A DNA stretch of 64,000 nucleotides from an uncultured Pseudomonadota bacterium (GCA_964433415.1 CAYSQM010000007.1:4291-68290), one strand, 5' to 3'. Shown: positions 40,749 to 64,000, counted from the first letter of the stretch. Notes: generated by a model from the sequence alone, not told the origin. Numbers and translations: made by a program.

Positions 40749-41801
40749 TTATGGTAAAGAAAATGGTGGTTTAGGGTTTGTTTGTAATGCTATCCTCTCT
40801 GACTTTGTTCTAAAAAAACTATCTTTTAAATACTTGAATACAAGATGGAGATACCATGAAGTATAAGTGGTAATGCGTGGTCGTTCTTTAAAGCCGACCA
40901 AAGAGGGAAAATGTTCAGTATCAATAATGATAATTTTCCCGGTTTCTTTTTCTACCATAAAATTATTAATATGTGGATCAATACGGCATAAGAGAAAGTT
41001 ACTTAAGTCCATTGCAGTATGTCGATCTTCTGAATTGAAAAACTCAAATGTACGTTCTTCATCAATTGCTTGTGCAACTATTGCATAAATACTTGGCATT
41101 TGGAGGGTTATTTTTTTATGTCCGCCAATGTTATAGCCGGTTAATTGAATTGTTTTTTGTTTTTTTGGAAGCCAAAACCATTTCTCTGGAACATCAACAC
41201 GATCAGCCCAATGATAATTTTTCAAAAGACGCTTTTTAATTGCCTTAGCATTTTTTATGCGAGTAAAGCCAACAAGATGTCTTGTAGATCCACCACCTAT
41301 TACAAAAAAACAGGCAGGTTCAAAACCTTTATTATAAGGTCTAATAAAACTACGGGGTGTTTCCATAAAAAGCTTTACTACAAAAGGGTATTTTTTACTT
41401 TTAACAATTAAAAGACCAGCCTTCTTTTTGGTATTTAAATCACGATTTTTTAATATTATAAAATCTTTATAAATTGTTTTTCCTTCTAAAACTTCTTTTA
41501 AAAGATTTTCTATAAGGTTGCTTAAGACTTTAGTATCAACTGATTTTTTAGGGTTATTACGGTATGCAATAGGAGTTAAAGGAAGTAAATTATTTTGGAT
41601 ATGTTCTTTATCATAGAGCTTGAAAAGTGGAAATAATTCAAGGTGAGAGTCTCTAAAAGTATATAGTTTTGCATCGTCAGTCCATTGTGTTGTTATGTAT
41701 GGAACTGTTGGGTCGATCTTTCTTAAAGCGCTTCTTGTATAAATAGAATCTGAAATAAAAACTATTATTAAAAATATAATAAACTGATTTCGATTTTGCA
41801 T
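40749..41801 (-). CDS. Protein-kinase-like-fold protein (APH/LPS-kinase-like motifs) with an N-terminal signal or anchor
   Basis: The N-terminal hydrophobic segment is FIIFLIIVFISDSIY. YPFVVKLFME is a candidate VxK lysine, and CRIDPHINNFMVEKETGKIIIIDTEHF resembles the D-x-H-x-x-N catalytic loop plus the IDxE metal-binding motif. Confidence 0.4.
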   Translation of the reverse strand: MQNRNQFIIFLIIVFISDSIYTRSALRKIDPTVPYITTQWTDDAKLYTFRDSHLELFPLFKLYDKEHIQNNLLPLTPIAYRNNPKKSVDTKVLSNLIENLLKEVLEGKTIYKDFIILKNRDLNTKKKAGLLIVKSKKYPFVVKLFMETPRSFIRPYNKGFEPACFFVIGGGSTRHLVGFTRIKNAKAIKKRLLKNYHWADRVDVPEKWFWLPKKQKTIQLTGYNIGGHKKITLQMPSIYAIVAQAIDEERTFEFFNSEDRHTAMDLSNFLLCRIDPHINNFMVEKETGKIIIIDTEHFPSLVGFKERPRITTYTSWYLHLVFKYLKDSFFRTKSERIALQTNPKPPFSLP

Positions 41802-46394: not shown

Positions 46395-46455
46395 GCGTTT
46401 TTATTATGATTGCATCATGAATACAGATTTAAATTAAAGATTGAAGGATTTAATA

Positions 46456-50012: not shown

Positions 50013-52751
50013 TTAAGCAGCATTAATTGATTGGCTATCATTGCTATAAAGATCAATTTTTGGCGTAAACAATAATGCTTTGCAAATAAGTTCTTTGCTA
50101 GTATCTTGAACTGGTTCAATTTCTTCAATTTCAAGAATTTCTTCAGTAGACAAAGAAGAACATTTCATAAGTGCTTCAATAATAGTAATTAATGTTTCTT
50201 TGTGGCTAGACAATAAGGAAAAGAGTTCTTTTTCACATTCTTCAACAAGTTTATACGATTGTCCAAGCTTAAGTTCACGTTCATATCGAGATACAGTTGT
50301 TTGGTTCTGTCCACGGAAGATAATCTTTTTTGCTAACTCAAGTGCAATAGTTAAATCTTCTGCATGACTTACGTAGTCCATCTCTAATACTTGCTGTCCA
50401 ATATTGCCAGAAAGAGCAATTTTACATTGTTTAAGTTGTTCATTAGTTGAAATCATATCAAGCATATCTTGAGTGTAATAAGAAAATATCCCACCATAAT
50501 TGATAGGATTTTGTTTCCCGTTTTCTTCATTCCACAGACGATGCGAAACATGAGTTTCACCAACATCTTTAATAACTTGTTCAATAGTAACAGAACAGAG
50601 CTTTTGATCAGGATTTAATAATAATGAAATTAATGCTTTTGAAGCAAAGCGTGTTGCAATAATACGTTTAGTTTTTTCTGAAATTTCTTGATCATATTTT
50701 ACAATTTGTTTAATAGCATCATTTACGGCTTGAACAATATGTTTTTGACCAACAGGTTCATGCGATTCTTTTGCATATGTTAATACTTTATTTGCAGCAA
50801 CTTGCATTACCCCATAAGAACAACCTTCGGTAGATCTGACAAGCATATCAATATTTAAATTAGTAGTATCCATTGCACGTTTTTTAAAGTAATGATTAAA
50901 ATATATTTCTCTATCCTTTTTTAAAGGGAAAGGGAAATATATAATTTCACCAAAACGTCCAGGTTGACGTAATGCGTAATCGATATTTTCTGGCCTATTA
51001 GTAGCAGCAATTACAAAGACTGGTGAACGTTCATCTGATAAAATACTTTCATGTAATATTTGTAAACATTCAGCGAGCAATGTTGCATTTGAATCACGTT
51101 GAGCGCGTAAGTTATCAAATTCGTCAATAAAAATAATACAAGGAGCTTTTTCACGAGCTAATGCTACCCAATAAGCAACGCCAGCAATTTTACCAGATTT
51201 TGGATCAACTTCTAAAATATCGTGAACTGAAACGTGGTAAACGCGAAGCTTGTCAGTTCTACCCATTTCTTCAAGTTGACGAGCAATTTCGCCTGTTAAA
51301 CAATCGATCAAAAAAGTTTTACCAGTTTGAGGTGGCCCTGCAAGAAGATAGCCACAAGGAATTTTTATACCAGCGCGAGTATAACGCTCTTGATGAACAA
51401 TGTAATCAATTAGAGGGGCAAAGCGTTTTTTGATATGATCACGTCCCAACATGCTATCAAAATTAGTATCAGATTTTGCAGTGTAAGATTTTTTGGTGCT
51501 TTTACGTGCTTCAAGGGTATCACGCAGGTCGCTTATTAATTGTCCAGCTTTTCCTTTAAGGTAGAGGAAATCATTATAAACATATTTAGCAAAAAATGCT
51601 GCAATACCAATTTCTGCATATTTTCCATAATTAATACTAATAAGAGGATCGATAAGGTCAGTTAAATTAGTAATATAGGCTTTATTTTCAGTGCGATAGA
51701 GTGCATGGGTAGTATTACTTTCTATGCCGGTTGCACGTGCTAGATCTGCATAATTTTCAGAGAAAATAGAGGCATTTTCAGGAATTAAATGAGCTGGTAT
51801 TTTTTCTCCTGTTTGACTATTTACAAATGTTGGGAGCGTTGCTTTTACGTCGAGATACTTACCATCTTGATTAAAAAGAGGGGTTCCGTTCTCATCGCAT
51901 GGAATATCAACAGGTATTGTACGTCGTTTAATTTGTTCCTTTTCTTCACCTTGAGCGCCTCCAATCCATTTAGATTTCTTAAGGTTAATTAAAAAATTAG
52001 AAACTCGGTCAGGTAAGAAATCATTTTTAAGTCGTTCTTCTGGGAAAATAAAAAGTGTAAAAAGAGCCATGCCGGTGTACACTGCAATATGTTCTGTAAT
52101 AGGTCCTAGTTTGTATCTTTTCCAAAAGCTAGTTACCGCTCTGGTTGTGTGGTTATACCAGGCAAGAGGAGCATTTATAGTGAGTTTTTCTAGAATATTG
52201 AGCATTACTTGATTGCTTTTTAAAAGTTCTTGCATGCTTTCAAGGGATACAAGGCCATCACGTTTTAAAATATTAGTTGGGTTAACAGCAGGGATAGCAA
52301 CAAGTTTATTTTTTAATGCTTCAATAAGGACACTAGTAAATTCTTTTACTAAGCGTCCAAGCATAACTAATTGAAATTTATCAACATGCATACTTGAATG
52401 TGCTCTAAATTCTTCGAGGCTCTTTTGTAAAGCCATAAGTTCTACTCTGACTTTTTCAGGATTGGTTACTTTTTTGAAAAGATTGTTCTGTAACGCTTGT
52501 CCAATTGAGTTAAATATTGAAAGAAGCTGGTCAATTTGAGCGTGAGAAATGTCTTGAAATGCAGTAATTACTTCTTGTGGAAAAACTAATTGTTGAGCAA
52601 TGCTATTTTGTGGAGCCCCTATTTTAGGGGCAGGAAAATCTTCTGAAGTTTGAAGAGTCTGTTCTTGCGAATAAGAAAAAAATGTGCTGGTTAATAATAA
52701 GCTGAGTAAAAACTTTTTTAAGAATGAAAATGATCCATTTATCACTTGCAT
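50013..52751 (-). CDS. FtsH-family AAA+ protein with a degenerate (HEXXH-less) M41 domain and a long N-terminal extension
   Basis: It has Walker A GPPQTGKT, Walker B CIIFIDEFD and SRH ATNRPENIDYALRQPGRFG. The position of FtsH HESGH reads TRFASK. It also has an N-terminal signal/TM and a second hydrophobic segment. Confidence 0.75.
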   Translation of the reverse strand: MQVINGSFSFLKKFLLSLLLTSTFFSYSQEQTLQTSEDFPAPKIGAPQNSIAQQLVFPQEVITAFQDISHAQIDQLLSIFNSIGQALQNNLFKKVTNPEKVRVELMALQKSLEEFRAHSSMHVDKFQLVMLGRLVKEFTSVLIEALKNKLVAIPAVNPTNILKRDGLVSLESMQELLKSNQVMLNILEKLTINAPLAWYNHTTRAVTSFWKRYKLGPITEHIAVYTGMALFTLFIFPEERLKNDFLPDRVSNFLINLKKSKWIGGAQGEEKEQIKRRTIPVDIPCDENGTPLFNQDGKYLDVKATLPTFVNSQTGEKIPAHLIPENASIFSENYADLARATGIESNTTHALYRTENKAYITNLTDLIDPLISINYGKYAEIGIAAFFAKYVYNDFLYLKGKAGQLISDLRDTLEARKSTKKSYTAKSDTNFDSMLGRDHIKKRFAPLIDYIVHQERYTRAGIKIPCGYLLAGPPQTGKTFLIDCLTGEIARQLEEMGRTDKLRVYHVSVHDILEVDPKSGKIAGVAYWVALAREKAPCIIFIDEFDNLRAQRDSNATLLAECLQILHESILSDERSPVFVIAATNRPENIDYALRQPGRFGEIIYFPFPLKKDREIYFNHYFKKRAMDTTNLNIDMLVRSTEGCSYGVMQVAANKVLTYAKESHEPVGQKHIVQAVNDAIKQIVKYDQEISEKTKRIIATRFASKALISLLLNPDQKLCSVTIEQVIKDVGETHVSHRLWNEENGKQNPINYGGIFSYYTQDMLDMISTNEQLKQCKIALSGNIGQQVLEMDYVSHAEDLTIALELAKKIIFRGQNQTTVSRYERELKLGQSYKLVEECEKELFSLLSSHKETLITIIEALMKCSSLSTEEILEIEEIEPVQDTSKELICKALLFTPKIDLYSNDSQSINAA

Positions 52752-52958: not shown

Positions 52959-54440
52959 ATGCATATGTTTTGCCTAAAAAAGAAAAGCGTTTTGATTCTT
53001 GTGCTAATTTTTATGGCAGCAGGAGGAATTTTTTTCAGTTATAAATTTTTATTGAGAGATTCTGAAGATCTTTTAATCAAGAATTCTTATGATATTAATT
53101 TTGATTTAGTTTTTAAAAAGAAAAATGTAGTACCATTTTTAGTTTTAGGTTCTGGCCCCGCTTCATTGGCGGCAGCTCTTTATGGTGCGCGAACTAAAGT
53201 GTATACGGTAGTGCTCAAAGGGAATCAGCCTGGTGGAGCGTTAACGGGGACCTCTTATATTGAAAATTGGCCAGCAATTCGTAAAATTCGCGGTACAGAG
53301 GTTGTACAAGATTTTGAAGATCAAGCTGCACAATTTGGGGCAGTTATGATTGGAGATGTAGCTAAATCAGTTGATTTTTCTCAATGGCCTTTTAAGGTAG
53401 AGACTGAAGAAGGGTTGGAACTTTATGCTATGTCATTGTTCATTGGAACCGGCGCAACTCCTCGTCGGCTTAATATTCCTGGGGAAAATGAGTATTGGGG
53501 TAAAGGAGTAACGACTTGTGCTATTTGTGATGCGCCTTACCATAAAGGTAATGAGGTGGTAGTGGTAGGTGGAGGGGATTCGGCTGTAGAAGAGGCGCTT
53601 GAACTTTCTCCTTATGTAAAAAAAGTATTTGTTTTGGTGCGAACAGACAAAATGCGTGCTTCTCCTACTATGTTAGAAAAAATGAAGCAATGTACTAATA
53701 TTGAAGTGGTGTATAATACCACCGTTTCTCAAGTCTATGGTGACGGGGCGCATGTTACTGCAATTGATATTCAAGATACTCAAACTCATAAAGTGGTAAA
53801 ATGGGATACTATTAAAGGTCTTTTCTTGGCTATTGGTCATAGTCCAAATACTGCTTTATTTGATAAAAATCGTTTGGCCATTGATAATTATGGATATGTT
53901 AAGCTTATTGGCCGTACACAGGCTACTACAATTCCTGGAGTCTTTTGCGCAGGGGATGTTTCTGATCCTCGTTATCGTCAAGCGGGTGTTGCTGCAGGCG
54001 ATGGTATTAAAGCTGGCCTTGACGCAGTGTGGTGGTTAATGGAACAAGGCTATAATAAGAATTTTGCGGACAAGCTTGATCCTTATATGTTTGACAAAAA
54101 AGCAAGTAAACATGTAAGTATTACACAAATTAATTCAATTTCAGAGTATGAAGCATTTATGAAAAAAGTTAAAAATAAACTAGTAGTTCTTGATTTTTAT
54201 TCACCTTATTGTCCAGCATGTATGCATATGCTACCAGCAGTTGAGTGGGTTGGTGCTAAATTTTCTGATTCAGTTGCTTTTGCAAAGGTTGATACTTCAA
54301 TAGCCTTTGATTTGGTTAAAAAGTTTGAAGTCCCGCAGATCCCATATCTTATTATGTTAAAAAAAGGTGCAAAAATTTCTTCATCATCTCAGGAACTTGA
54401 TAGAGCTGGACTCTCTGCGTTTATTAAAAAAGAGCTTTAA
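52959..54440 (+). CDS. trxB: Thioredoxin reductase fused to a C-terminal thioredoxin domain, with an N-terminal hydrophobic anchor
   Basis: It has VLGSGPASLAAALYGAR (FAD), the CAICDA redox centre, VVVVGGGDSAVEEA (NADPH) and a C-terminal Trx fold with YCPAC. The N-terminus reads KKKSVLILVLIFMAAGGIFFSY. The start may be the ATG at 52965, which has better Shine-Dalgarno spacing. Confidence 0.85.
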   Translation: MHMFCLKKKSVLILVLIFMAAGGIFFSYKFLLRDSEDLLIKNSYDINFDLVFKKKNVVPFLVLGSGPASLAAALYGARTKVYTVVLKGNQPGGALTGTSYIENWPAIRKIRGTEVVQDFEDQAAQFGAVMIGDVAKSVDFSQWPFKVETEEGLELYAMSLFIGTGATPRRLNIPGENEYWGKGVTTCAICDAPYHKGNEVVVVGGGDSAVEEALELSPYVKKVFVLVRTDKMRASPTMLEKMKQCTNIEVVYNTTVSQVYGDGAHVTAIDIQDTQTHKVVKWDTIKGLFLAIGHSPNTALFDKNRLAIDNYGYVKLIGRTQATTIPGVFCAGDVSDPRYRQAGVAAGDGIKAGLDAVWWLMEQGYNKNFADKLDPYMFDKKASKHVSITQINSISEYEAFMKKVKNKLVVLDFYSPYCPACMHMLPAVEWVGAKFSDSVAFAKVDTSIAFDLVKKFEVPQIPYLIMLKKGAKISSSSQELDRAGLSAFIKKEL

Positions 54441-54561
54441 TTCTTAGAAATGGCTTTAAAAAAAAATGAAGTAAAAAAATTGTTGTATTTTAAGTAGTCC
54501 TTTTCCTAAACTTTACTTTAAAGGTTAAAAAACTATTAGTAATTTTTTGGAGAGTGATTTT

Positions 54562-57500
54562 ATGAAAAATTTAAAAAATACAAAATTGGGACTCATTTTT
54601 TTTGCAGTCAGTCTCTTTTCTTTTATTGCCATTAATAATATCTCAGTTGCAATGGAAGGTGAACTAGGAGAAGCCTTTGGTGGGATGGATGTTGAAGCGC
54701 TGGGCAAAGAATTTAGTGAAGCTGCAGCAAATGCTGAAGAATTTGTTGATAAAGCTGCACAAGAAGGTAACGAATTTACTAGTAATAAAAACGTTGAACA
54801 GGAATTAGCGAACGCGCAAGAAGGTTTGCAGAGCCAGTCAGCTGTTAGCCCAGAAGATTCAGTTTCGTTTTCAAGTGGCGGTGACAGTGTTATGAGTAGA
54901 AGTATTAGTAAAGATAGTTTTTCTGACTTTCCACCACCGTCACCTCATATGACTGAGTCAGCAGGGTTGGTTCAAGAACAAACACCTATGCAAACAAAAG
55001 CTATTAATCAAACTACAGTAGAAACAAACACCCCACGATTAAATAACATGTCAGATCCAGTTGAGCCTGTTGCTAAAACAACAGATGCAGTAGGTGATGC
55101 TTTATTAAAAAAGGGACAAGCAGCTTTAGACGTTAAATCTACTACAGCTGATCTTGAAACGGCAAATGCGCAATTAAAAGATGCAAGTAATGCCCTAAAA
55201 GAAGCAAAAAGTAGTGGGGATCCTGATGCTATTTCTACTGCAAATAAAAATTATCAAGATGCCCTTGAGCAACAAGGTAAAGCTTTAGATGCGCAAGCTT
55301 CTGCTAAAGCCGCATTAAAAGATGCTGGCGCACAAGCGAGTTCTGCAAATGCTCATAATACAGACAGTTTGGCAAAGCAAGCATCAGAACTTAAGTCTCA
55401 AATGGGATCTAAATTAGAAAATGCTAAAAGTAGTCTTGAAGCAGCTCAATCTGATTTAGAGGCTTTTGAACAAACAAAACCAAATGAAGCTGATTATGAA
55501 AAAAATGATGATAATAATGCTTGGATTAAAGCTAATGATGAGTATGAAGAAGGTTTGCAATCAAAGCAAGCTGCCGTTGAAAAGGCTCAAGGAGAAGTTG
55601 AGTCAGCTCAGAAAAATTATGATGCAGCGTCTAAGGCAGCAGAAGGTAAATCATTTGCTGCTAAAGCATGGGATTTTGCAAAAGGAAAACTTGAATTTAT
55701 TGCAGAACAACTTGTACAAAGTGTTTTATTTTCTATAGTTCCAGAAATTTTTCAACAATTAAGTCAAACTTTACAAAATAAAGCTTTATATGCAGATATC
55801 ACAAGTGTCAAAACATTTGCGGGTATTAATATGAAAATACCTTCTGGTTTAGTGCCAAGTGAAAATCCTTTAGGTGGATTATTTATTTATTATGATGTGC
55901 AGCCAGGAAGTAAAATTACCAATGCCTACTTACGTGACCCAAATCGCCGTTGGTTTGTTTCTTATGATCCAACAGGATTTGCTGAACCTGGAACTTATTA
56001 TATAGGTGCAAGTAATTTTCCAGACTCTATGTTGGAATTGAGTACAGGCCTTATCTTTGATGCGTCTGGTTCTGTAGTCTATCCTTCATATAGCCCAAGT
56101 CAATCAATGCCATTTACTATGCCAACATCATTACTTTTTAATGATACGAGTACTGTTTCCAATACTGCATTATGGAGTTCTTCACCTAAAATGTCTATTG
56201 AAGCTGCTTTAAATGGGCTTACTACAAGTGTTAATGGTTCTTCTAAGAGCTCTAGTTATGGTAGTCTTGATCCTGTTAACATTTTCTTTGGTGGAGCAGG
56301 TTCTTATGATACAGGCCCAGATTCTAATAGTAATCTTAAGTATTTATTTACTACCCCGTCTTATTATTCAGCTAATCTTTCTTATCCTCCAATAATGCAT
56401 TCTACTCTTTTACAATATGTAACTCCTACAGAAAATGCATTAACTAATTTTGGACAACCTGCTGTGGGGCAAGTCCAAGGGGTGGCAATTTCTTTACAAG
56501 AATTAGCTGGGTTAGGAGATTTAGCAGAAATTTTTGGGGCAGCTTATTTTAATATATTTATTAACCAATCATCTTCTTTAAGTCCAGCAGATTCAGCTGC
56601 TTATTCTGCTAAATTAAAGAATTTTTATGAAGGTCTTGCGGCATTAAGATATGTTGATCCAGCAAAAGTTACCGATCCAAATGCACAGTTAGTAGGTACC
56701 ACTTTAGAATTAACAAATAGTGCATCTTTGGATCATTTAATTTCTTCTTTAACAACTGCTACTGCTCAGAATACTAATGGTTTTGATCCGCGAGATCATT
56801 TGATTGCTCACGGTCTTCCAATTTATCAAACGGATAGCACTCCAACTGCACAATTTTTAAAAGATTTTGTATCAGCTACTTCAAGTTCTGTTTTGGCAAA
56901 ATATGTACATGATATAGTAGTTCCTCTTGATACTAATAAAATGCCTACTTTAGCAATGATTCCTACTGTTACTAATGGGTCAGTCAGTTTTCAAGCAAAT
57001 CCAGCTGTCCAATACATTACGAGTTTGGTTTCTGGTTTAACTTATCAGCAAAATAGTGGTTATAATATGCCGGTTCAAAGTCCTAATGGTGGTGCAGATA
57101 ACACAATAGCATCGTCTATTCTTAGTTATATAAGTACACCTTCAAAATGGCCAGTATCCATTTTGATTTCTCAACAAATTTCACAAATTCGTAGCTTGTT
57201 TAATACTGCAATTACAGAAGGCCCTTTTAATTTAAGTGGTGGACTTCAAGCGTATCGCGTTTCTCTACCTGCAATGTTAAATGCAGTAGTAGATGGAGTT
57301 ACTAATCAATCTTTAGTTAATAATTGGATTGGTAATGTAGCTGAACAGATACCAAATACAGCATCCTTTCCTGATTTTAATCAAAAAATGGCCTTGTTAG
57401 CAGATGCGTTTGTATATACTATTCCTAATGCATTGCAAGGTATTGCTTCTGATGGGGTGACTGTTATTTCTTTACCTGATTATGTGGTACCTATTATGCA

Positions 57501-60500
57501 AGATTTAGTGAATAAAGATTGTTATTTGATGGTGCCATTAGGTTGTCAGGCTTCCACTAATAGTATCGGTTTTGGAATGCCTAGTCAGCAAATATTTGGT
57601 TTGATAAGTTTGGTTACTTCTAAATTTTATAATCCTGATTATACATTAAAAAATGATCCAGTAGCTGATTCTTTAAAAATTGGAAATCCTCCTTCATTGC
57701 CTACAGTTTTAGGAACAGCATTTGTAGAAACTGATTTTAATCCATTAAACTTTACCAATACAGGTACTAAATCTAGCCCTGTATATACTCCTCTTAGCCC
57801 CTATATTGTTACTATTCCATCATTGTATTTCTTAAATCTGAATGCTTTTTCATTTTCTTTTGGATTGCTTCCTGTTCAATCAACAAGTTCAGAAGCAGGT
57901 ACATCATCTGCTGGGGCTACTTTTATTACCATTGGAGGAGGAAAGCCAGCTCCTTTAGGTATTCCTTTAAATATGTTGCTTCCTCAAGGGTTTACTGGTA
58001 TTGCTCCTAATTCAAATTCTCTTAATAGTACTATTCCTGGGTCTTCTACTCCTTCTACGGGGGTGACATCTTATACTAATGCACAATTGGTTTCTGCAGA
58101 AAGTGGAAATTTACCAAGTGTGAGTGCAGTACACGCTTCATGGTTTACTTATATGAATAGTATAAGTGCAGGTTCAATTATGTTAGAACTTGATCCTCAG
58201 TATATTTGTAATAATAATGGGTATTCAGATTGGACAATTACTGCTACTAATATTGCCGATGTTAAGAATGGTAATTATTTCTATACCACTAATCAAACTT
58301 CAGGACTATACGTATTAGCTACTTATGGAAATGGTGGTACTACTACTTCAGTAAATATTTCTGGAAAATCTGTGTCATTAAGTGATTTTTCTGGAATTGG
58401 TGCAAATTTTAGTGAAGCAGCAAGTAGTAATGCTTTAATTGATGTAGGAACAGGTTCGGTATTAGTTATAGTTCCTGGATCAAGTTCTTCTACTACCACT
58501 ATGGCTCCTTTAATGCGTTATTCTGTAGCTAGTGGTACTAATTCTCCAGCATTATTAGCTCCTATTTTATTAGATCCACAAGCAGTTACTGCACTTGCTT
58601 TAAAAAATCAACAAACAAATGCTGAAAGTAAAGCTCCTTCTGCTCAATTATTGTCACGTATAGCTTCTTCTCAAGGAAATAGCACGAATACTACAGTAAT
58701 GGGTCCTTATTCTTATGCTGGATATTCTTTGACTGTTGATAGACAGTTGTATAATGATGGAAATTATATTTACACAGCTAAAGATTCAACTGGTGCCATT
58801 AAAGACTACCTCATAACTTATGATTCTTCATCAACTCAAGTATATAATAAACCATTTTCTATCAATTCAAAAATGGTAAGTATGTTGAATGGAAGATTGT
58901 TTAGTGCGTCAGGAGTAAATAGTAGCACTAATGGTGGGATATTCTTTGGAATAAATAATTTTGATCTTTCAAAAGCTCCTGAAACGTGTGAAGGTTTAGT
59001 TGTAGGAGTAAGTGGTGTTCAAATTAATTCAATAACAGAACCAACTATTATAAATGATATTGCAACTCTTGCAGCAACGGTAAATAATGAGGTTATTAAT
59101 CAAAGTAATATTATAGATGATTCTGAAGCTATTGAAGATAAAGTTTTTGCTCTAGCGCAAAAATTACATATTCCTTATGCTGCTCTTAATTCTACACAAC
59201 CTATTGCGAGCATTATTGGTCAATCTGTCCAATTTAATGAAGAAAATGGTATTCTTACGGGGCAATTAGTTCAAGATACTAATGGGCAATTTTATTTACG
59301 TTCAGCAATTCCTACTGGTACGTCTTCAGTTAATGGCGCAACCTTAGCTTATTCATATTATCAATTTGATATTTCACAGTTGCCATCTGCAAAAACTTTA
59401 GATAAAAATAAAATTTTGCAAATGCCAACCGGTGTTTTTTATGATCAAAATGGTAAAGCAACTTCTGTATTAGTTGGTAATGCTGCTTTAAAAATGCTAT
59501 CAGCATATGGTCTTGTTATTGCGCCTTCTAATCAGTTAACGCTTGGTCTTCCACTAGTCAGACAATCGTTGCCAATGACCGTAAGTGACTATAATGTTGA
59601 AAGTAATAGTTCTGCTTTATTAAATGGGGGAAATGGATTATTAATGCAAAGACTTCCAGGAACTTCTGTTATTAGTGGTTCTTCAGCTGATTATTATTTT
59701 TATAAAAATATTTTCCATGCAGGAGCATCAGCAGCACAGTTGGAAGCAGCTGAAAATAATGCGTATGGGGCTTATAACGATCCTTATTCTCCTTATGATC
59801 TTCTATTGCAAGTTAATCCAAAAGTTAATCCTCAAGCACCTTCAATTCCTGCAGGGGATCCTTATTTTGCAAGTCTTTTAACAGGAATTACTTATGGAAT
59901 GGATGGAACGCAACTTTATGAAAATTGTGAACTATATTTCCAAAATATAGGAAATTCTTCATCTGCTCCTGCTTCAAACTTGCCATTAATAGTCTGGGGT
60001 GATGGAATTGCTAATACTCAAGCGATATTAGGTTCAAGTGATATTTCAATGGTAGATGGTATTCAAGTAGAAGGTACTGATTTTGTTAATTTTAATACTT
60101 ATCAAATCGATCCTTTTGGATGGTCTTTTGAATATGTTTCTCCATCTGATGCTTCTAATAATCCAGTAATTTATACGCTTACTTATCAAGATCCAAGTTA
60201 TTATTTAAGCGCGGGTAATCCAGGTTTTTCATTCCAAGCATACCCTCCAACTGCCGTACCTAATAGTGAAGGCGAGTATATTTCTCAACTTACGGATTCA
60301 AAAGGGAATGTCACTTATGTTATAGAAAATAGTGATGGTGAAAATACACCATTAATTCCAGGGCAAATCTTTAAAGTTGACTCTAATGGGGCACTTATTG
60401 CAACCTATGGAGAAACTGCAGTTATTCCTTCTGTAAGCTCAGCATTGTCTCTTGCTGATAATAATACAGCAGTGCTTTCTGCAATATGTAATGCTGTAGC

Positions 60501-62835
60501 AGAAAGTATGTATGAAGCATTAACTACTGGTCGTGGAGCTAATAATCCATTACCTACTCTTGGAACAGTCTATAAAATTTCAACAGGTCCTAATCCTACA
60601 GTACTTAAATCATATTATTTAAATGGCACACCAAATGCACCGGTATTTGATAAAAGTAGTTTTTCTGCTGGAGATATTGATGTAAGTACTGATGGTTCTT
60701 TTGCTACAACTATTATTAATCAAGGATATATTAATCTTGTTTTAGCCAATATGCAGGCTGCTCAGGCTGAAAATTCTACCACTGGCACAGTGTTTGTTGT
60801 ACCAAGTGTAGCAGGTTCAGCTTTACCATCTCCGCTTAAAGCGTCTTATAGCATGCAATTAACAACTCCAGCTGGTTCAAGCGCTCCAACTTTAACGCAA
60901 ATTGCAGGAGCTGCTGCTCAAAACATGATAAATGCTTTAAATGATGCAAATAGTGCAAAATTAGCTCAGTCACGTAAATTGATGAATATGACTAGTGTAA
61001 TTAAGTATGGATCTACTCTTGAAAAAATTTTATTAGCTCAAGATAGTTTAGGGGTATACAGTATGTATCAATCTAATCTTCTTACTAATAATGGATCTGC
61101 CTTAGCTACCTATAGTTTACAACCTTCTGAGTTATGGAAAGCAAATATTTTAAGCTTTGTCGGAACGCGTCCTAGCTCAGCAGCAGTAGGTACATTGCCA
61201 GTTTATGATCAAACTAATGTTTATAATAATACTGTCTTAATAGAAAATGTATTAACAAAAACTTATGATACAATTATTTATGATAATTCAGTCTATCGCC
61301 CTGTAAAACCGGGTGGTGCTTTAGGAGTAGGATTAACTTCTGTTAATACCTTTAATATATTAGGTGCTTCAGCTCAACCTATACCAGAATCAACTCCAGT
61401 AACATATGCACCATTAGATTTTAGTAATACTGCAAGTGGTCTTTCTACTAATGCATCCGATTATATTACCTTAAATATAAAAAACTATGGTGATTTATTA
61501 AATCCTGGGAAGCTTCCTCCAATACAGTATACTGATTCAAATGGTAATTTAGTTAATATTTGGCCACAAAGTATGCCTGGGTTATTGTTAAATGATGCAA
61601 AATACGTAAGTATTAATGCTCCGTTTAATGCAACTGGGCCTCAATATAGCAATGGTAAATTTGTACCAAATCCAACTGAATGGATTTTCCAATATGTGTA
61701 TCCATTAGTTGATCAGAACGCTATACCTGATTTATTAGGCTCGCTTAATATTGCATTGGTAGGTTCAACAAGCGGTATAATAACTCCCGTTATGACTCTT
61801 CCTGTTAATAATGGAGCTATTGCTTTAAATAGTATTGCAGCATCTCCTAGTGATGGTGGTCAAGCGCTTGCATTGGCTGCAATAAATAGTTCTTATAGTA
61901 CGGCAACAACAAATACAACAACTGCTCAAAATAATTTAAATGCTTTAATTGCAGAAGTTAATGCTGATGCTACAAGTGCAGTTCAATCAGCTATTCCACA
62001 AATTCAAACGGGTGGAACATGTCCAGCAGGAACAATGCCAGTTTCTATTGCAGGTGCAAGAGGTCCAGCACAAACATATTGTGTTCCTGCAACGGCATTA
62101 TCTTTAGTTGGGGGTACTACCAATGCTAATAAAAACACGAATAGCAATACTAGTGGAATTAGTTTAAATCAAAATAAAACTGTTTCACAACTTCAATCTG
62201 GTGTAGCGAATGCACAAAAAACGTTAGCTAATTTACAGTCGAACTTAACTGCAGTAACAACTCCATCTACCGGTCTTCTTGCTTCTCGTTCTGCCAGTCG
62301 TATGGCATTTTTAAATAATCTTTATTATAGAACGGTAACATCAGTTAATGAAAGTGGTAATTCTCCTTCTACTGTAGCTATTTTATATTATAAAGTGGAT
62401 GCAAACACATTAAGTCAGTTATCTGCTACTACTAATGCAACTATTGGGTGTTATATTGAATATCCAATAGGTACGCAAGAAGCTGGGTATATTTATAATG
62501 GTATTGCTCCAACAGCTGATCAACTTGATTTGGCAGGAAAACCTATACCACCAGCAATTGCTTTAGGTGAGCCAACAGGTGCATCATTGTCTTCAGCTGA
62601 TATGATAACATTAAAGAGTCTTGTGGGGACAACGCTTCTTTTAAACTCATCAGGAGTTCCTGTTTCTGCATTAATACCAGATCCTTCTCAAAATAGTATT
62701 ATTACTTTGACTGCTGGTAATAGTCTTTTCAATAATTATTTCTACTTTGGTGATTTATTACCTGGTGGGTCTGCTTTTGTTGCTCCATCGGTATCGGCTC
62801 CATTATTAGGGGGTTTGAGTAGTCCTTCAAAGTAA
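54562..62835 (+). CDS. Giant (about 2,757 aa) secreted or surface protein with no recognised domains
   Basis: A GGAGAG Shine-Dalgarno lies 8-9 nt before the ATG at 54562 (the track starts at the TTG at 54547). The protein has a signal/anchor (LGLIFFAVSLFSFIAINNISVA), an A/K/Q/E coiled-coil-like region of about 220 aa, then more than 2,000 aa rich in S/T/N/G/P/Y. A terminator follows. Confidence 0.7.
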   Translation: MKNLKNTKLGLIFFAVSLFSFIAINNISVAMEGELGEAFGGMDVEALGKEFSEAAANAEEFVDKAAQEGNEFTSNKNVEQELANAQEGLQSQSAVSPEDSVSFSSGGDSVMSRSISKDSFSDFPPPSPHMTESAGLVQEQTPMQTKAINQTTVETNTPRLNNMSDPVEPVAKTTDAVGDALLKKGQAALDVKSTTADLETANAQLKDASNALKEAKSSGDPDAISTANKNYQDALEQQGKALDAQASAKAALKDAGAQASSANAHNTDSLAKQASELKSQMGSKLENAKSSLEAAQSDLEAFEQTKPNEADYEKNDDNNAWIKANDEYEEGLQSKQAAVEKAQGEVESAQKNYDAASKAAEGKSFAAKAWDFAKGKLEFIAEQLVQSVLFSIVPEIFQQLSQTLQNKALYADITSVKTFAGINMKIPSGLVPSENPLGGLFIYYDVQPGSKITNAYLRDPNRRWFVSYDPTGFAEPGTYYIGASNFPDSMLELSTGLIFDASGSVVYPSYSPSQSMPFTMPTSLLFNDTSTVSNTALWSSSPKMSIEAALNGLTTSVNGSSKSSSYGSLDPVNIFFGGAGSYDTGPDSNSNLKYLFTTPSYYSANLSYPPIMHSTLLQYVTPTENALTNFGQPAVGQVQGVAISLQELAGLGDLAEIFGAAYFNIFINQSSSLSPADSAAYSAKLKNFYEGLAALRYVDPAKVTDPNAQLVGTTLELTNSASLDHLISSLTTATAQNTNGFDPRDHLIAHGLPIYQTDSTPTAQFLKDFVSATSSSVLAKYVHDIVVPLDTNKMPTLAMIPTVTNGSVSFQANPAVQYITSLVSGLTYQQNSGYNMPVQSPNGGADNTIASSILSYISTPSKWPVSILISQQISQIRSLFNTAITEGPFNLSGGLQAYRVSLPAMLNAVVDGVTNQSLVNNWIGNVAEQIPNTASFPDFNQKMALLADAFVYTIPNALQGIASDGVTVISLPDYVVPIMQDLVNKDCYLMVPLGCQASTNSIGFGMPSQQIFGLISLVTSKFYNPDYTLKNDPVADSLKIGNPPSLPTVLGTAFVETDFNPLNFTNTGTKSSPVYTPLSPYIVTIPSLYFLNLNAFSFSFGLLPVQSTSSEAGTSSAGATFITIGGGKPAPLGIPLNMLLPQGFTGIAPNSNSLNSTIPGSSTPSTGVTSYTNAQLVSAESGNLPSVSAVHASWFTYMNSISAGSIMLELDPQYICNNNGYSDWTITATNIADVKNGNYFYTTNQTSGLYVLATYGNGGTTTSVNISGKSVSLSDFSGIGANFSEAASSNALIDVGTGSVLVIVPGSSSSTTTMAPLMRYSVASGTNSPALLAPILLDPQAVTALALKNQQTNAESKAPSAQLLSRIASSQGNSTNTTVMGPYSYAGYSLTVDRQLYNDGNYIYTAKDSTGAIKDYLITYDSSSTQVYNKPFSINSKMVSMLNGRLFSASGVNSSTNGGIFFGINNFDLSKAPETCEGLVVGVSGVQINSITEPTIINDIATLAATVNNEVINQSNIIDDSEAIEDKVFALAQKLHIPYAALNSTQPIASIIGQSVQFNEENGILTGQLVQDTNGQFYLRSAIPTGTSSVNGATLAYSYYQFDISQLPSAKTLDKNKILQMPTGVFYDQNGKATSVLVGNAALKMLSAYGLVIAPSNQLTLGLPLVRQSLPMTVSDYNVESNSSALLNGGNGLLMQRLPGTSVISGSSADYYFYKNIFHAGASAAQLEAAENNAYGAYNDPYSPYDLLLQVNPKVNPQAPSIPAGDPYFASLLTGITYGMDGTQLYENCELYFQNIGNSSSAPASNLPLIVWGDGIANTQAILGSSDISMVDGIQVEGTDFVNFNTYQIDPFGWSFEYVSPSDASNNPVIYTLTYQDPSYYLSAGNPGFSFQAYPPTAVPNSEGEYISQLTDSKGNVTYVIENSDGENTPLIPGQIFKVDSNGALIATYGETAVIPSVSSALSLADNNTAVLSAICNAVAESMYEALTTGRGANNPLPTLGTVYKISTGPNPTVLKSYYLNGTPNAPVFDKSSFSAGDIDVSTDGSFATTIINQGYINLVLANMQAAQAENSTTGTVFVVPSVAGSALPSPLKASYSMQLTTPAGSSAPTLTQIAGAAAQNMINALNDANSAKLAQSRKLMNMTSVIKYGSTLEKILLAQDSLGVYSMYQSNLLTNNGSALATYSLQPSELWKANILSFVGTRPSSAAVGTLPVYDQTNVYNNTVLIENVLTKTYDTIIYDNSVYRPVKPGGALGVGLTSVNTFNILGASAQPIPESTPVTYAPLDFSNTASGLSTNASDYITLNIKNYGDLLNPGKLPPIQYTDSNGNLVNIWPQSMPGLLLNDAKYVSINAPFNATGPQYSNGKFVPNPTEWIFQYVYPLVDQNAIPDLLGSLNIALVGSTSGIITPVMTLPVNNGAIALNSIAASPSDGGQALALAAINSSYSTATTNTTTAQNNLNALIAEVNADATSAVQSAIPQIQTGGTCPAGTMPVSIAGARGPAQTYCVPATALSLVGGTTNANKNTNSNTSGISLNQNKTVSQLQSGVANAQKTLANLQSNLTAVTTPSTGLLASRSASRMAFLNNLYYRTVTSVNESGNSPSTVAILYYKVDANTLSQLSATTNATIGCYIEYPIGTQEAGYIYNGIAPTADQLDLAGKPIPPAIALGEPTGASLSSADMITLKSLVGTTLLLNSSGVPVSALIPDPSQNSIITLTAGNSLFNNYFYFGDLLPGGSAFVAPSVSAPLLGGLSSPSK

Positions 62836-62861
62836 TTTTTTAGAAACTTTTTAAGGTGAAA

Positions 62862-62888
62862 AAAGGCATGAGAAATCGTGCCTTTTTT
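62862..62888 (+). terminator. Rho-independent terminator of the giant gene
   Basis: The stem aaggcatga/tcgtgcctt (one G-U pair) encloses a short loop and is followed by TTTTTT. Confidence 0.65.
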
Positions 62889-62988: not shown

Positions 62989-64000
62989 ATGGTTAAATGT
63001 ACCGTAAACAGTAAACCAATGTTAACACAAAAAGCGGATGCGTTTTTGTTTTTTGTAAAAGAAGGTTTTAAGTTCGATAAAGAATATGAAGCATTAGCAA
63101 AAGAATTTTTTCTACCATTAAAACAACAGATGGTAACAGGAAAATTTGAAGGTAAAAAAGGACAAAAGTTATCTATTCAAGGTGCTAATAAAGATGGCGT
63201 TAAATATCTTTTTTTTGTTGGTATAGGTGGTGGTAAAAAAGAAAAAGAATCTTATTTTAGTAGTATTGAGCAGTATCGACGTACTTTGGCAACTGCAGTA
63301 CGTATGGCAGAAGCTCAAAAGATAACATCAATTGCTTTTGAAGCACCAGATGCAGCGCTTTTTAAAACAACACTTGATGAACTTGCTCAAGCAACAGCTG
63401 TTAGTAGTTTAATGGCGTCTTATTGTTTTAATGAATTCATTACAAATAAAGATGATCAGTTAATTACTTTAAAAGAGTTGTTAATTACTGTTGATACAAA
63501 AAATGCAAAAGCATTTAAAGATGGTCTTGCAACTGGTATTATTATTGGTGAAGCAATTAACAAGACACGTCATTGGATAGATCTTCCTGCAAATCTTATG
63601 ACACCATACACTTTAGTAAAACATGCTAAAGAACTTGCAAAACAACATGGTCTAAAAGCAACTATTTTTGATGAAGCTAAGATAGAAGAGCTTGGCATGG
63701 GTGGTTTAAAAGCAGTTGGTATGGGTTCTCAGCATGATTCACATTTAATTATTCTTGAATACTCATGCAAGAAAAAGAATGCACCAACTATTGCTTTAGT
63801 TGGTAAAGGCATAACTTTTGATTCAGGTGGGCTTAATTTAAAACCAACTGGTTATATCGAAACTATGAAAGAAGATATGGCTGGTGCGGCAACAGTTATG
63901 AATGCAATTTCAGTACTTGCTCAACTTGAAGTGCCGGTAAATGTGGTAGCTCTTGCAGCTATTGCGGAAAATATGGTTAGTGGTGGTGCAAATCATCCTG
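62989..64000 (+). CDS. pepA: Leucyl aminopeptidase (M17), 3'-truncated by the window edge
   Basis: It is not in the ORF track because there is no stop within the window. My translation from the ATG at 62989 gives MVKCTVNSKPMLTQKADAFLFF...VGKGITFDSGGLNLKPTGYIETMKEDMAGAA, which contains the M17 signature. Confidence 0.88.
   Translation, partial: MVKCTVNSKPMLTQKADAFLFFVKEGFKFDKEYEALAKEFFLPLKQQMVTGKFEGKKGQKLSIQGANKDGVKYLFFVGIGGGKKEKESYFSSIEQYRRTLATAVRMAEAQKITSIAFEAPDAALFKTTLDELAQATAVSSLMASYCFNEFITNKDDQLITLKELLITVDTKNAKAFKDGLATGIIIGEAINKTRHWIDLPANLMTPYTLVKHAKELAKQHGLKATIFDEAKIEELGMGGLKAVGMGSQHDSHLIILEYSCKKKNAPTIALVGKGITFDSGGLNLKPTGYIETMKEDMAGAATVMNAISVLAQLEVPVNVVALAAIAENMVSGGANHP

What the first reader, a model, noticed from the sequence alone, without database searches (positions are those of the whole stretch)
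54547..62835. Uninterrupted 8.3-kb ORF encoding a ~2,760-aa protein with no recognisable domain or repeat architecture
One ORF occupies about 13% of the window. It has its own Shine-Dalgarno/ATG (54562) and its own terminator (62862-62888), so it looks monocistronic. Its layout is as follows:
- an N-terminal hydrophobic signal or anchor;
- an acidic stretch;
- about 220 aa of A/K/Q/E-rich, coiled-coil-like sequence (DLETANAQLKDASNALKEAK...);
- more than 2,000 aa rich in S/T/N/G/P/Y/A with very few Cys and no tandem repetition I can see, unlike RTX, Big, cadherin or YadA-type adhesins;
- a second short coiled segment and a Cys pair (GGTCPAGT...TYCVPA) near the C-terminus.
The protein ends ...LSSPSK, so it lacks an autotransporter/OMP terminal aromatic residue, and I see no sorting tag. 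Keeping such a long ORF open in an AT-rich genome, where stop codons arise easily, argues for selection. Two genes upstream lies a protease-dead FtsH-like AAA+ gene, and directly upstream a membrane-anchored TrxR-Trx fusion. Whether these three genes form a functional unit is speculation.
Basis: partly seen in the sequence, partly recalled or inferred. Interest (0 to 1): 0.72.

Follow-up and report, generated by a model that had tools for sequence, protein, structure and literature searches.

The report
Giant secreted protein family of Dependentiae
The 8.3-kb gene is real and encodes a giant exported protein found only in the parasitic bacterial phylum Dependentiae (TM6), always at the same genomic spot, built from hidden copies of a small domain with no known relative, and its function is still unknown.

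Summary
The ORF (54547-62835; likely ATG 54562; 2,757 aa) is real. It has 0 internal stops against 146-331 in the other five frames, and an independent assembly differs by 1 nt. Pfam, NCBIfam, PHROGs, PADLOC and PDB sequence searches recognise nothing.

The genome belongs to Dependentiae/TM6. An index-free profile search found 52 relatives at E<=1e-3. 44 are longer than 1,700 aa; several others are shorter proteins or gene fragments. In all ten orthologous loci examined, the gene lies directly upstream of pepA in a conserved housekeeping backbone. It evolves about twice as fast as most neighbours.

"No repeat architecture" holds only at BLAST level. Profile-profile comparison, with a clean reversed control, shows a cryptic ~90-aa module: 4 significant, 1 borderline and 1 marginal copy here, and 4-5 copies in nearly all full-length relatives. 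Pooled copies gave a confident AlphaFold model (pLDDT 87), with no significant Foldseek match in PDB or BFVD.

Best reading (0.5): a Sec-exported envelope or surface protein, with a helical N-terminal rod carrying an array of novel domains, that mediates host contact or forms a coat.

Most novel reading (about 0.1): the outer-membrane tether or scaffold that this phylum appears to lack.

The parts
54547..62835 (+). Giant ORF. The probable CDS is 54562-62835 (2,757 aa plus stop).
54549..54554 (+). Shine-Dalgarno-like GGAGAG, 7 nt upstream of the ATG at 54562.
   Evidence: read from the sequence
54562..54651 (+). Signal peptide, aa 1-30 (MKNLKNTKLGLIFFAVSLFSFIAINNISVA|MEGE). Nearly all full-length relatives share a hydrophobic core followed by a small residue and then M/G-E.
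   Evidence: The cleavage site is inferred by inspection; no SignalP was available.
54652..55128 (+). Acidic Gly/Ala/Glu-rich stretch followed by a P/S/T-rich low-complexity segment (aa 31-189).
   Evidence: Relatives have similar E/G/A-rich starts.
55129..55671 (+). A/E/K/Q/L-rich, Pro-poor helical rod (aa ~190-370). It is coiled-coil-like, but that is only modestly supported.
   Evidence: heptad test p=0.03. A family-profile search of PDB sequences hit only coiled-coil proteins, at E>0.1.
55735..56073 (+). Repeat-domain copy R1 (aa 392-504, including the leading helix). This is the most conserved block of the family.
   Evidence: i-Evalue 1e-14
56752..57060 (+). Repeat-domain copy R2 (aa 731-833).
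   Evidence: i-Evalue 4e-14
57328..57645 (+). Repeat-domain copy R3 (aa 923-1028).
   Evidence: i-Evalue 4e-8
58183..58470 (+). Repeat-domain copy R4 (aa 1208-1303), weaker.
   Evidence: hhalign 81% against R5; i-Evalue 1.3e-3
58630..58935 (+). Repeat-domain copy R5 (aa 1357-1458), the most compact copy and the one modelled.
   Evidence: i-Evalue 2e-12; AF2 pLDDT 87.3, pTM 0.71
59680..59910 (+). Possible repeat-domain copy R6 (aa 1707-1783), marginal.
   Evidence: 72% for aa 810-841 against 1749-1788; i-Evalue 0.04, no better than the best reversed-control hit
60355..60996 (+). A second, different internal duplication (aa 1932-2008 and 2073-2145). It overlaps a region (aa ~1950-2100) that few relatives align to.
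   Evidence: hhalign 89%; low occupancy over aa 1950-2100
62020..62082 (+). Cys pair C2487/C2507 (GGTCPAGT...TYCVPA). C2487-P2488-x-G2490 is invariant between W and P0002. It is no longer invariant in the 5-sequence alignment, where the consensus reads CPDG.
62311..62766 (+). Conserved C-terminal module (aa ~2584-2735: LNNLYYR...LYYKVD...GEPTGxxLSSADM...DLLPG), followed by a P/A/S-rich tail. Distant relatives end in a Lys/Arg-rich tail.
62859..62888 (+). Intrinsic terminator (13-bp stem, T-run).
52959..54440 (+). Upstream neighbour: TrxR-Trx fusion with an N-terminal hydrophobic anchor (CAIC and CPAC motifs intact).
50013..52751 (-). FtsH-like AAA+ paralog with no HExxH (protease-dead), transcribed divergently from TrxR-Trx.
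62989..64000 (+). Downstream neighbour pepA (M17 leucyl aminopeptidase, cut by the window end). It is the only invariant neighbour of the giant gene.

Best explanation
The gene encodes the local ortholog of a previously undescribed family of giant proteins (about 1,700-2,760 aa) restricted, as far as the evidence goes, to Dependentiae/TM6. It is inherited vertically at one fixed locus, directly upstream of pepA.

The protein carries a Sec-type signal peptide and is therefore exported across the inner membrane. That signal is shown; the rest of the route is inferred.

The mature protein has an acidic N-terminus and then a ~180-aa Pro-poor helical rod. A ~2,350-aa body follows, in which 4-6 copies of a novel ~90-aa alpha/beta domain are separated by long, fast-evolving insertions. 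It ends in a conserved C-terminal module.

I infer that it is a structural or adhesive protein of the cell envelope or cell surface. The rod would act as a stalk or oligomerisation element, and the domain array as the binding or coat-forming part. It would reach the surface or medium through the type II secretion channel that the literature reports as conserved in TM6. There it would mediate contact with the protist host or form a protective coat.

The AAA and TrxR-Trx neighbours belong to the same conserved backbone. They are not shown to work with it.
For: Real, selected gene:
- 0 internal stops against 146-331 in the other frames.
- An independent assembly differs by 1 nt.
- 44 of 53 family proteins exceed 1,700 aa, and one reading frame stays open over that length in each.

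Lineage and orthology:
- A TM6 MAG (L004) carries a syntenic 2,504-aa ORF that matches this protein at E=2e-70.
- The same slot was found in ten relative loci, including the most distant full-length hit, P0040.

Export:
- There is a single N-terminal hydrophobic segment with small residues before M/G-E, and nearly all full-length relatives share this pattern.
- No lipobox, LPXTG or RTX motif.

Domain array:
- hhalign gave 11 segment pairs above 50% probability, in register. The reversed-template control peaked at 6.8%.
- The iterated HMM found 224 copies in 53 proteins and none in the reversed control at the same threshold.
- AF2 on the pooled copies gave pLDDT 87.3.
- The domain also occurs alone, behind a signal peptide, in a complete 148-aa gene seen on three contigs.

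Surface-like properties:
- Acidic (207 D/E against 121 K/R), 0.3% Cys, 0.9% Arg, rich in S/T/N/A.
- 24-44% identity, against 40-85% for rpiB, TrxR-Trx and pepA in the same genome pairs.

Literature:
- TM6 genomes conserve Sec and a T2SS with two gspD copies (PMC4776705).
- In C. destructans, 44% of CDS have signal peptides, and these are enriched in ORFans (PMC6561590).
Against: - There is no direct evidence of localisation or binding.
- No anchoring domain was recognised (SLH, OmpA-like, LysM, barrel or lipobox), so how the protein would stay on the cell is unexplained.
- No ligand-binding fold was recognised.
- The repeat domain has no structural analog, so nothing supports 'adhesive' beyond architecture and composition.
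- Strict positional conservation among housekeeping and cell-wall genes, and near-universal presence, would also fit a core cellular role rather than host interaction.
- One related contig (L005) has TrxR-Trx and pepA but no giant gene, so the gene is dispensable in at least one lineage.
- The coiled-coil character of the rod is only weakly supported.
Confidence: 0.5

Rival explanations
1. Secreted effector or toxin. After Sec export the protein is released, through the T2SS or in outer-membrane vesicles, and acts on or inside the host cell (phagosome escape, mitochondrial recruitment) rather than staying on the bacterium.
For: - Signal peptide and no recognisable anchor.
- Faster evolution than most neighbours, as expected for host-interaction factors.
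- C. destructans sheds apparent OMVs in the food vacuole, and many ORFan secreted proteins are proposed effectors (PMC6561590).
- Eukaryote-like genes (C2H2 zinc fingers, ankyrins, WD40) are inserted around the locus in several genomes.
Against: - No catalytic, pore-forming or translocation domain was detected in any of the eight family members scanned (six of them full-length giants).
- Effectors are usually accessory and mobile. This gene is single at a fixed, ancient locus.
- Its size and modular domain array resemble structural proteins more than enzymes.
Confidence: 0.2
2. Periplasmic or envelope scaffold, possibly the missing outer-membrane tether of Dependentiae. The helical rod would span the periplasm and the domain array would bind the outer membrane or peptidoglycan, giving envelope stability in a phylum that lacks Lpp, Pal, OmpA and OmpM.
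For: - None of the four known OM-tethering systems was found in ten Dependentiae genomes (bioRxiv 10.1101/2021.05.31.446380).
- The gene is conserved across the family at one locus, a few genes from ftsW and murD.
- Sec export.
- If fully helical, the ~180-aa rod would be about 27 nm long, at 0.15 nm per residue. This is my own estimate.
- 'Dark-staining periplasmic material' is seen in C. destructans (PMC6561590).
Against: - No peptidoglycan-binding or membrane-inserting element was recognised.
- A 2,300-aa body is far larger than any known tether.
- The gene is absent from L005.
- The ftsW/murD linkage may be no more than backbone synteny.
Confidence: 0.12
3. A functional three-gene unit. 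The membrane-bound, protease-dead FtsH-like AAA+ would unfold or translocate the giant, and the membrane-anchored TrxR-Trx would control its few cysteines.
For: - AAA, TrxR-Trx and the giant are adjacent here and in L001, L004, L006, L008 and L009.
- All three also lie in the same locus in L012 and the P0040 contig, but there other genes sit between TrxR-Trx and the giant.
- L005 lacks both the AAA gene and the giant.
- The AAA protein keeps Walker A and B but has lost HExxH.
- The AAA protein also diverges fast in distant pairs (28-31% identity).
Against: - The same synteny extends to unrelated housekeeping genes.
- Other genes are inserted between TrxR-Trx and the giant in L010, L012 and the P0040 contig.
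- In L010 no AAA gene lies beside TrxR-Trx.
- The AAA gene is on the opposite strand.
- The giant has only 9 Cys.
Confidence: 0.1
4. Not a real gene: a chance ORF, an assembly chimera or a decaying pseudogene.
For: One ortholog (L007) is split by a frameshift.
Against: - P(no stop) is about 1e-88.
- GC by codon position is 0.46/0.45/0.15, typical of coding sequence.
- There are 52 relatives, 44 of them full-length proteins (>1,700 aa).
- An independent assembly is identical but for 1 nt.
- The L007 break is a single indel in a T7 run.
Confidence: 0.01

Closest known systems
Giant non-fimbrial surface adhesins of Gram-negative bacteria (RTX/T1SS adhesins such as LapA, SiiE and MpIBP; Big- or cadherin-repeat proteins)
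   Same: Multi-thousand-residue exported proteins. They are acidic, Cys-poor and built as arrays of small beta-rich domains, and they are used for attachment. They are often the largest gene of the genome.
   Different: - No Ig-like or cadherin repeats, no RTX nonapeptides and no C-terminal T1SS signal. Export here uses an N-terminal Sec signal.
- The repeats are few (4-6), extremely divergent (about 15-25% identity) and separated by 100-300-aa insertions, not tandem near-identical units.
- The domain has no detectable relative.
S-layer and outer-sheath proteins, and OM-tethering rod proteins (Deinococcus SlpA, Negativicutes OmpM, Thermotoga Ompalpha)
   Same: - Composition: acidic, almost no Cys, rich in S/T/N/A.
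- Fast sequence divergence at a conserved locus.
- An own strong terminator.
- An N-terminal region followed by a helical rod.
- Dependentiae lack all known tethers, according to the literature.
   Different: - No SLH or other peptidoglycan-binding domain.
- No C-terminal beta-barrel or TM anchor.
- The body is 3-5 times larger.
- Lattice formation and abundance are untested.
Mycoplasma cytadhesins (P1, P40/P90, P140/P110)
   Same: (From my own knowledge, not tested here.) Large lineage-specific adhesins of reduced-genome host-dependent bacteria. Sequence databases recognise nothing in them, and their conserved cores carry long variable insertions.
   Different: - Those proteins have a C-terminal TM anchor and a single beta-propeller N-domain.
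- Here there is no TM anchor.
- The single unit folds on its own as an alpha/beta domain (AF2) and occurs as a stand-alone protein.
Rhs/YD-repeat shells and beta-trefoil lectin domains (for example the N-terminal domain of BinA-like toxin 8bad)
   Same: The recurring hairpin motif phi-phi-S-L-phi-T-G-x-phi-Y-D-x-x-G looks superficially like YD or QxW-type motifs. The best PDB sequence-profile hit was 8bad residues 31-81, though it is not significant.
   Different: - That hit has E=1.1.
- No RHS or ricin Pfam hit.
- No Foldseek match (best E 1.9, TM<0.3).
- The motif recurs every 150-350 aa, not every 20-40 aa.

Membership tests
RTX / T1SS adhesins | GGxGxD nonapeptide repeats and a C-terminal T1SS secretion signal, with no N-terminal Sec signal | tested here: not met
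   No GGxGxD motif. No Pfam hit. A Sec-type N-terminus is present.
Type V autotransporters (classical, Pmp, trimeric YadA-like) | C-terminal beta-barrel translocator domain ending in an aromatic residue | tested here: not met
   No Autotransporter or YadA Pfam hit at E<=1. The C-terminus is ...LSSPSK. Relatives end in P/A-rich or Lys-rich tails.
Ig-like (Big), cadherin or FN3 repeat adhesins | Tandem Ig-like, cadherin or FN3 domains detectable by profile | tested here: not met
   0 Pfam and 0 NCBIfam families in W, P0002, L004g, P0013, P0024 and P0040, and only sub-threshold chance matches in P0028 and P0020. Self-BLASTP finds no tandem repeats.
S-layer proteins | Cell-wall anchoring module (SLH, CWB2 or similar) | tested here: not met
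   No Pfam hit.
S-layer proteins | Acidic, Cys-poor, S/T/A-rich composition, with fast divergence | tested here: met
S-layer proteins | Self-assembly into a 2-D lattice and very high abundance | not testable with these tools
   Needs EM or proteomics of a cultured Dependentiae.
Known OM tethers (Lpp, Pal, OmpA, OmpM) | Lipobox plus a peptidoglycan link, or an OmpA-like or SLH peptidoglycan-binding domain with OM insertion | tested here: not met
   No lipobox. No OmpA, SLH or Pal Pfam hit.
Rhs / YD-repeat proteins | Dense YD repeats (PF05593) forming a shell, with an Rhs core | tested here: not met
   No Pfam hit. The motif spacing is 150-350 aa.
Sortase-anchored surface proteins | C-terminal LPXTG, hydrophobic stretch and basic tail | tested here: not met
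   No LPxTG. No C-terminal hydrophobic segment.
New Dependentiae giant-protein family (defined here) | Signal peptide, acidic/helical N-terminal module, at least 4 copies of the ~90-aa domain, and a position directly upstream of pepA | tested here: met
FtsH (for the AAA neighbour at 50013-52751) | AAA+ module with Walker A and B, plus an M41 protease with HExxH | tested here: not met
   - The AAA module is present. Walker A is GPPQTGKT and Walker B is IIFIDE.
- Residues 425-874 align to FtsH 7zbh.
- There is no HExxH and no M41 Pfam hit.
- It is therefore an FtsH-like pseudo-protease, not FtsH.
- The canonical FtsH (HESGH) is at 12759-14747.

The most novel reading that the evidence does not exclude
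The giant protein is the missing envelope tether or scaffold of Dependentiae, a phylum reported to lack Lpp, Pal, OmpA and OmpM. It would be a Sec-exported protein whose helical rod spans the periplasm and whose array of a structurally new domain holds the outer membrane. That would explain its conservation at one locus near ftsW and murD. More broadly, its ~90-aa repeat would be a new protein fold specific to this phylum.
Probability: 0.1. Interest if true: 0.85.

Novelty: new variant of a known kind. Interest (0 to 1): 0.62.

Why it matters
Dependentiae (TM6/Babelota) are widespread obligate parasites of protists, and almost nothing is known about how they attach to, enter or survive in their hosts, or how they hold their envelope together.

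This gene is about 13% of the window. It is conserved at a fixed position across the family, exported, and invisible to every annotation library. That makes it a prime candidate for a lineage-defining envelope or host-contact structure.

The work also supplies tools for follow-up:
- a family definition (52 cluster representatives);
- a domain model (a ~90-aa alpha/beta unit with a confident AF2 model and no structural analog found);
- a synteny marker (directly upstream of pepA).

Together these make the protein findable in any Dependentiae genome and testable in the few cultured strains. If it turns out to be the outer-membrane tether or a coat, it would answer an open question raised in the OM-tethering literature.

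Tried and rejected
- **AF2 on aa 371-1570** with a 4-sequence MSA gave pLDDT 30.8, which is unusable. I ran no fold search on it.
- **First indexed homolog search** with the full protein found only itself and one relative. The candidate list was probably crowded out by low-complexity word matches. A 3-sequence profile without the N-terminus found two more.
- **Index-free profile search** was what opened up the family.
- **Genome-collection scan** with the giant itself found nothing, because only two peptide patterns were used. The TrxR-Trx scan gave the taxonomy and L004/L005.
- **Last indexed search** with the pooled-repeat profile returned nothing, not even family members. It says nothing about whether the domain occurs outside the family.
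- **dN/dS** was not possible. The only close variant differs by 1 nt, and the other orthologs are saturated.
- **Global heptad periodicity** over aa 190-370 was not significant. Only a local-window test gave modest support.
- **Phage and plasmid tblastn**: no match. PADLOC and PHROGs gave nothing meaningful.
- **Readings considered and rejected**: a beta-propeller with insertions, a YD shell and a beta-trefoil. The unit folds alone with high confidence, occurs as a stand-alone protein, and has no Foldseek or Pfam support for those folds.

Full report
**1. The observation**

- The ORF listing gives one ORF at 54547-62835 (+), 2,762 codons from a TTG. The likely start is the ATG at 54562, 7 nt after GGAGAG. 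That gives 2,757 aa ending ...LSSPSK.
- The frame has no internal stop. The other five frames carry 146-331 stops, and about 194 are expected from base composition.
- GC by codon position is 0.46/0.45/0.15, which is coding-like.
- A 13-bp hairpin with a T-run lies at 62859-62888. It folds at -19.7 kcal/mol, z = -4.35.
- No sigma-70-like site was reported in the 121-nt gap upstream. 'Its own terminator' therefore holds, but 'monocistronic' is unproven.
- An independent Logan assembly (L003) carries the same gene with 1 nt difference in 8,274. This excludes an assembly artefact.

**2. Layout of the protein**

- The only strongly hydrophobic, TM-like segment is N-terminal (aa 6-31).
- Residues 1-100 have 17 D/E against 6 K/R. 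Residues 200-400 are 55-60% A/E/K/Q/L. The remainder is rich in S/T/N/G.
- The whole protein has 9 Cys, 0.9% Arg, and 207 D/E against 121 K/R.
- There is no lipobox, LPxTG or GGxGxD motif.
- Pfam and NCBIfam at E<=1 return nothing. PHROGs and PADLOC return nothing for this protein, and only two sub-threshold PHROG matches for a relative's helical region.
- A family profile against all PDB sequences returns only coiled-coil noise, at E>0.1.
- Coiled-coil character is weakly supported. A global 3.5-residue periodicity test was negative. A local-window test gave p=0.03 here and 0.008-0.25 in relatives.

**3. Where it comes from, and its relatives**

- The window is about 32% GC and contains dnaA, a canonical ftsH, a PBP transpeptidase (FtsI/PBP2-like), thrS and pgk.
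- A genome scan with the upstream TrxR-Trx fusion hit a 'candidate division TM6' MAG at 56% identity (L004).
- L004 carries a 2,504-aa ORF in the syntenic position. It matches the giant at 24% identity over 2,110 aa, E=2e-70.
- Indexed searches found only four cluster representatives among 5.8 billion proteins.
- The index-free HMMER search of 1.84 billion representatives, using a profile of aa 371-1570, found 52 proteins at E<=1e-3 and 38 at E<=1e-10.
- 44 family proteins exceed 1,700 aa. The rest include shorter proteins and gene fragments.
- None carries a name other than 'hypothetical protein'.
- None of the eight family members scanned has a significant Pfam domain. That is six full-length giants (W, P0002, L004g, P0013, P0024, P0040), the N-terminally truncated P0028, and the short P0020. 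The stand-alone P0046 is also blank.
- tblastn found no match in phage or plasmid records.

**4. Synteny**

- I examined ten relative loci: L001, L004, L006, L007, L008, L009, L010/L011, L012/L013 and the P0040 contig, plus L003, which is the same genome as the window.
- In every locus whose contig reaches that far, the giant lies directly upstream of pepA. L008 ends at the giant.
- The surrounding backbone is pgk, MacB/FtsX, an unknown gene, rpiB, (unknown), FtsH-like AAA (-), TrxR-Trx (+), giant (+), pepA (+), ftsW, murD, ileS.
- This holds even for P0040, the most distant full-length hit (E=9e-10).
- The gene is therefore ancient and vertically inherited, not mobile.
- In distant relatives, other genes sit between TrxR-Trx and the giant: a hydrolase, C2H2 zinc-finger proteins and small ORFs. 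In L010 no AAA gene lies next to TrxR-Trx.
- One related contig (L005) has rpiB, TrxR-Trx and pepA but neither the AAA gene nor the giant.
- I conclude that the three genes share a backbone. A functional unit is possible but not supported.
- One ortholog (L007) is split. The break is a single frameshift within a T7 run, and both parts are otherwise open and homologous.

**5. Rate of evolution**

In seven genome pairs the giant is 24-44% identical. rpiB, TrxR-Trx and pepA are 40-85% identical in the same pairs. The giant therefore diverges roughly twice as fast. The AAA protein is the exception: it falls to 28-31% in the three most distant pairs. Variable stretches lie between conserved blocks.

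**6. A cryptic repeated domain**

- Self-BLASTP finds no repeats in three orthologs. By eye, however, a three-part motif recurs.
- I cut a 17-member MSA into 140-aa segments and compared all non-overlapping pairs with hhalign.
- 11 pairs scored above 50% probability (best 89%, E=2e-6), and all were in register. They link aa 392-508, 734-833, 932-1026, 1211-1303, 1359-1456 and 1749-1788.
- With column-reversed templates the maximum probability was 6.8%, and no pair exceeded 10%.
- An HMM iterated from the compact copy converged on 224 copies (i-Evalue<1e-3) in 53 proteins. Nearly all full-length proteins have 4-5 copies. The reversed-sequence control had none at that threshold.
- The copies in this protein:

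| Copy | aa | i-Evalue |
|---|---|---|
| R1 | 415-504 | 1e-14 |
| R2 | 731-833 | 4e-14 |
| R3 | 923-1028 | 4e-8 |
| R4 | 1208-1329 | 1.3e-3 |
| R5 | 1377-1452 | 2e-12 |
| R6 | 1707-1783 | 0.04 (marginal) |

- No other ORF in the window has the domain.
- Pooling 108 copies as an MSA, with this protein's R5 (aa 1357-1458) first, gave a confident AlphaFold2 model: pLDDT 87.3, pTM 0.71. It has an N-terminal helix followed by six short strands and a short helix.
- Foldseek found nothing significant in the PDB (best E 1.9, TM<0.3) or in BFVD (best E 0.39).
- A PDB sequence-profile search gave only E=1.1, to the N-terminal region of a BinA-like toxin.
- The domain also exists alone. P0046 is a complete 148-aa gene, a signal peptide plus one domain, seen on three contigs.
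- A second, unrelated internal duplication (aa 1932-2008 and 2073-2145, 89%) overlaps a region (aa ~1950-2100) that few relatives align to.

**7. What it most likely is**

Shown:
- a real gene under selection;
- a Sec-type N-terminus conserved across the family;
- no other membrane segment or known anchor;
- an acidic then helical N-terminal module;
- a body made of a divergent array of a novel autonomous domain;
- a conserved C-terminal module;
- a fixed locus across the lineage;
- fast divergence.

Inferred:
- The protein is exported to the envelope. It may reach the surface or medium through the T2SS, which is the OM channel reported as conserved in TM6 (PMC4776705).
- It acts as a structural or adhesive element in host contact or as a coat (confidence 0.5).

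Rivals:
- a released effector (0.2);
- a periplasmic scaffold or OM tether (0.12);
- a unit with the AAA and TrxR-Trx neighbours (0.1, not exclusive of the others);
- not a gene (0.01).

The tether idea has some appeal. Witwinowski et al. found none of the four known OM tethers in ten Dependentiae genomes. C. destructans also shows dark periplasmic material. But no peptidoglycan-binding or membrane-binding element is recognisable in the giant.

**8. Comparison with known families, and novelty**

- The protein works most like giant exported adhesins or coat proteins. It fails every membership test for RTX, autotransporter, Ig/cadherin, S-layer (SLH), Rhs/YD, sortase-anchored and OM-tether families.
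- It is best filed as a new protein family with a new domain. In kind, it is a new variant of the giant exported surface or envelope protein.
- I score interest at 0.62. The family, its cryptic domain and its locus conservation across the lineage are new and useful for an enigmatic phylum. But giant hypothetical proteins are common in uncultured lineages, and the function remains inferred.

Noticed in passing
window 46441-49197 (+): A 918-aa WD40/beta-propeller protein sits between rpiB and the 212-aa gene here and in the same-genome contig L003 (where only its 3' end is seen). It is absent from the relatives L001, L006, L008 and L009. It is extremely AT-rich (GC about 0.24; 0.35/0.23/0.11 by codon position). 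It looks like a recent, eukaryote-like insertion.
   Followed up: partly
window 52959-54440 (+): A thioredoxin reductase-thioredoxin fusion with an N-terminal hydrophobic anchor and intact CAIC and CPAC motifs. It is 44-78% identical across the Dependentiae loci compared. If the anchor places it outside the cytoplasm, its NADPH supply is unexplained.
   Followed up: partly
window 50013-52751 (-); canonical FtsH at 12759-14747 (-): A second, FtsH-like AAA+ protein keeps Walker A and B but has HExxH replaced (TRFASK). It has an N-terminal hydrophobic segment, a second TM near aa 220, and a ~200-aa insertion before the ATPase. The P0040 contig has two such AAA genes in tandem.
   Followed up: partly
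window 21116-22522 (-): A 467-aa protein matches Pfam NCA2, a eukaryotic mitochondrial ATP-synthase regulation protein, at E=6.6e-6 and 26 bits (cut-off 20.6). This is notable because C. destructans replicates nested in the host mitochondrion.
   Followed up: no
L004 19000-19584; L010 2343-6526; L009 19148-19765: Eukaryote-like genes (C2H2 zinc-finger proteins, an ankyrin-repeat protein) are inserted at different points around the giant gene in different genomes. The locus seems to tolerate effector-like insertions.
   Followed up: no
L007 ~1214-1220: The ortholog in ERR14822391 is split by one frameshift inside a T7 homopolymer. This could be a sequencing error, a recent pseudogene or slipped-strand phase variation.
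   Followed up: partly
L005 (CAZJVC010000023.1): This MAG contig is labelled 'uncultured Pseudomonadota' but has Dependentiae-like synteny (rpiB, TrxR-Trx ... pepA). It lacks both the giant and the FtsH-like AAA gene. It is either a lineage that lost both or a mislabelled relative.
   Followed up: partly
L014 388-834 (P0046): A stand-alone 148-aa secreted protein made of one copy of the repeat domain, seen on three short contigs. It would be a convenient target for expression and structure work.
   Followed up: partly
family C-termini: Many distant family members end in a Pro/Ala/Thr-rich linker followed by a Lys/Arg-rich tail (for example ...KPAAKMRRK...KRRGKK), while the N-termini are strongly acidic. 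Head-to-tail electrostatic assembly, or binding to an anionic surface, is conceivable.
   Followed up: no
window 1-64000: No tRNA gene and no Rfam family at gathering score in 64 kb. dnaA is at 36210-37592, and cumulative GC skew rises across almost the whole window, with no lasting sign change near dnaA.
   Followed up: no
window 5664-8426 (+): A 920-aa protein whose only recognisable part is a partial sigma-54-interaction AAA+ domain near the C-terminus (aa 696-783). Several other ORFs of 350-800 aa in the window (38242-40596, 27487-29031, 40749-41801, 33462-34694) have no Pfam hit at all.
   Followed up: no
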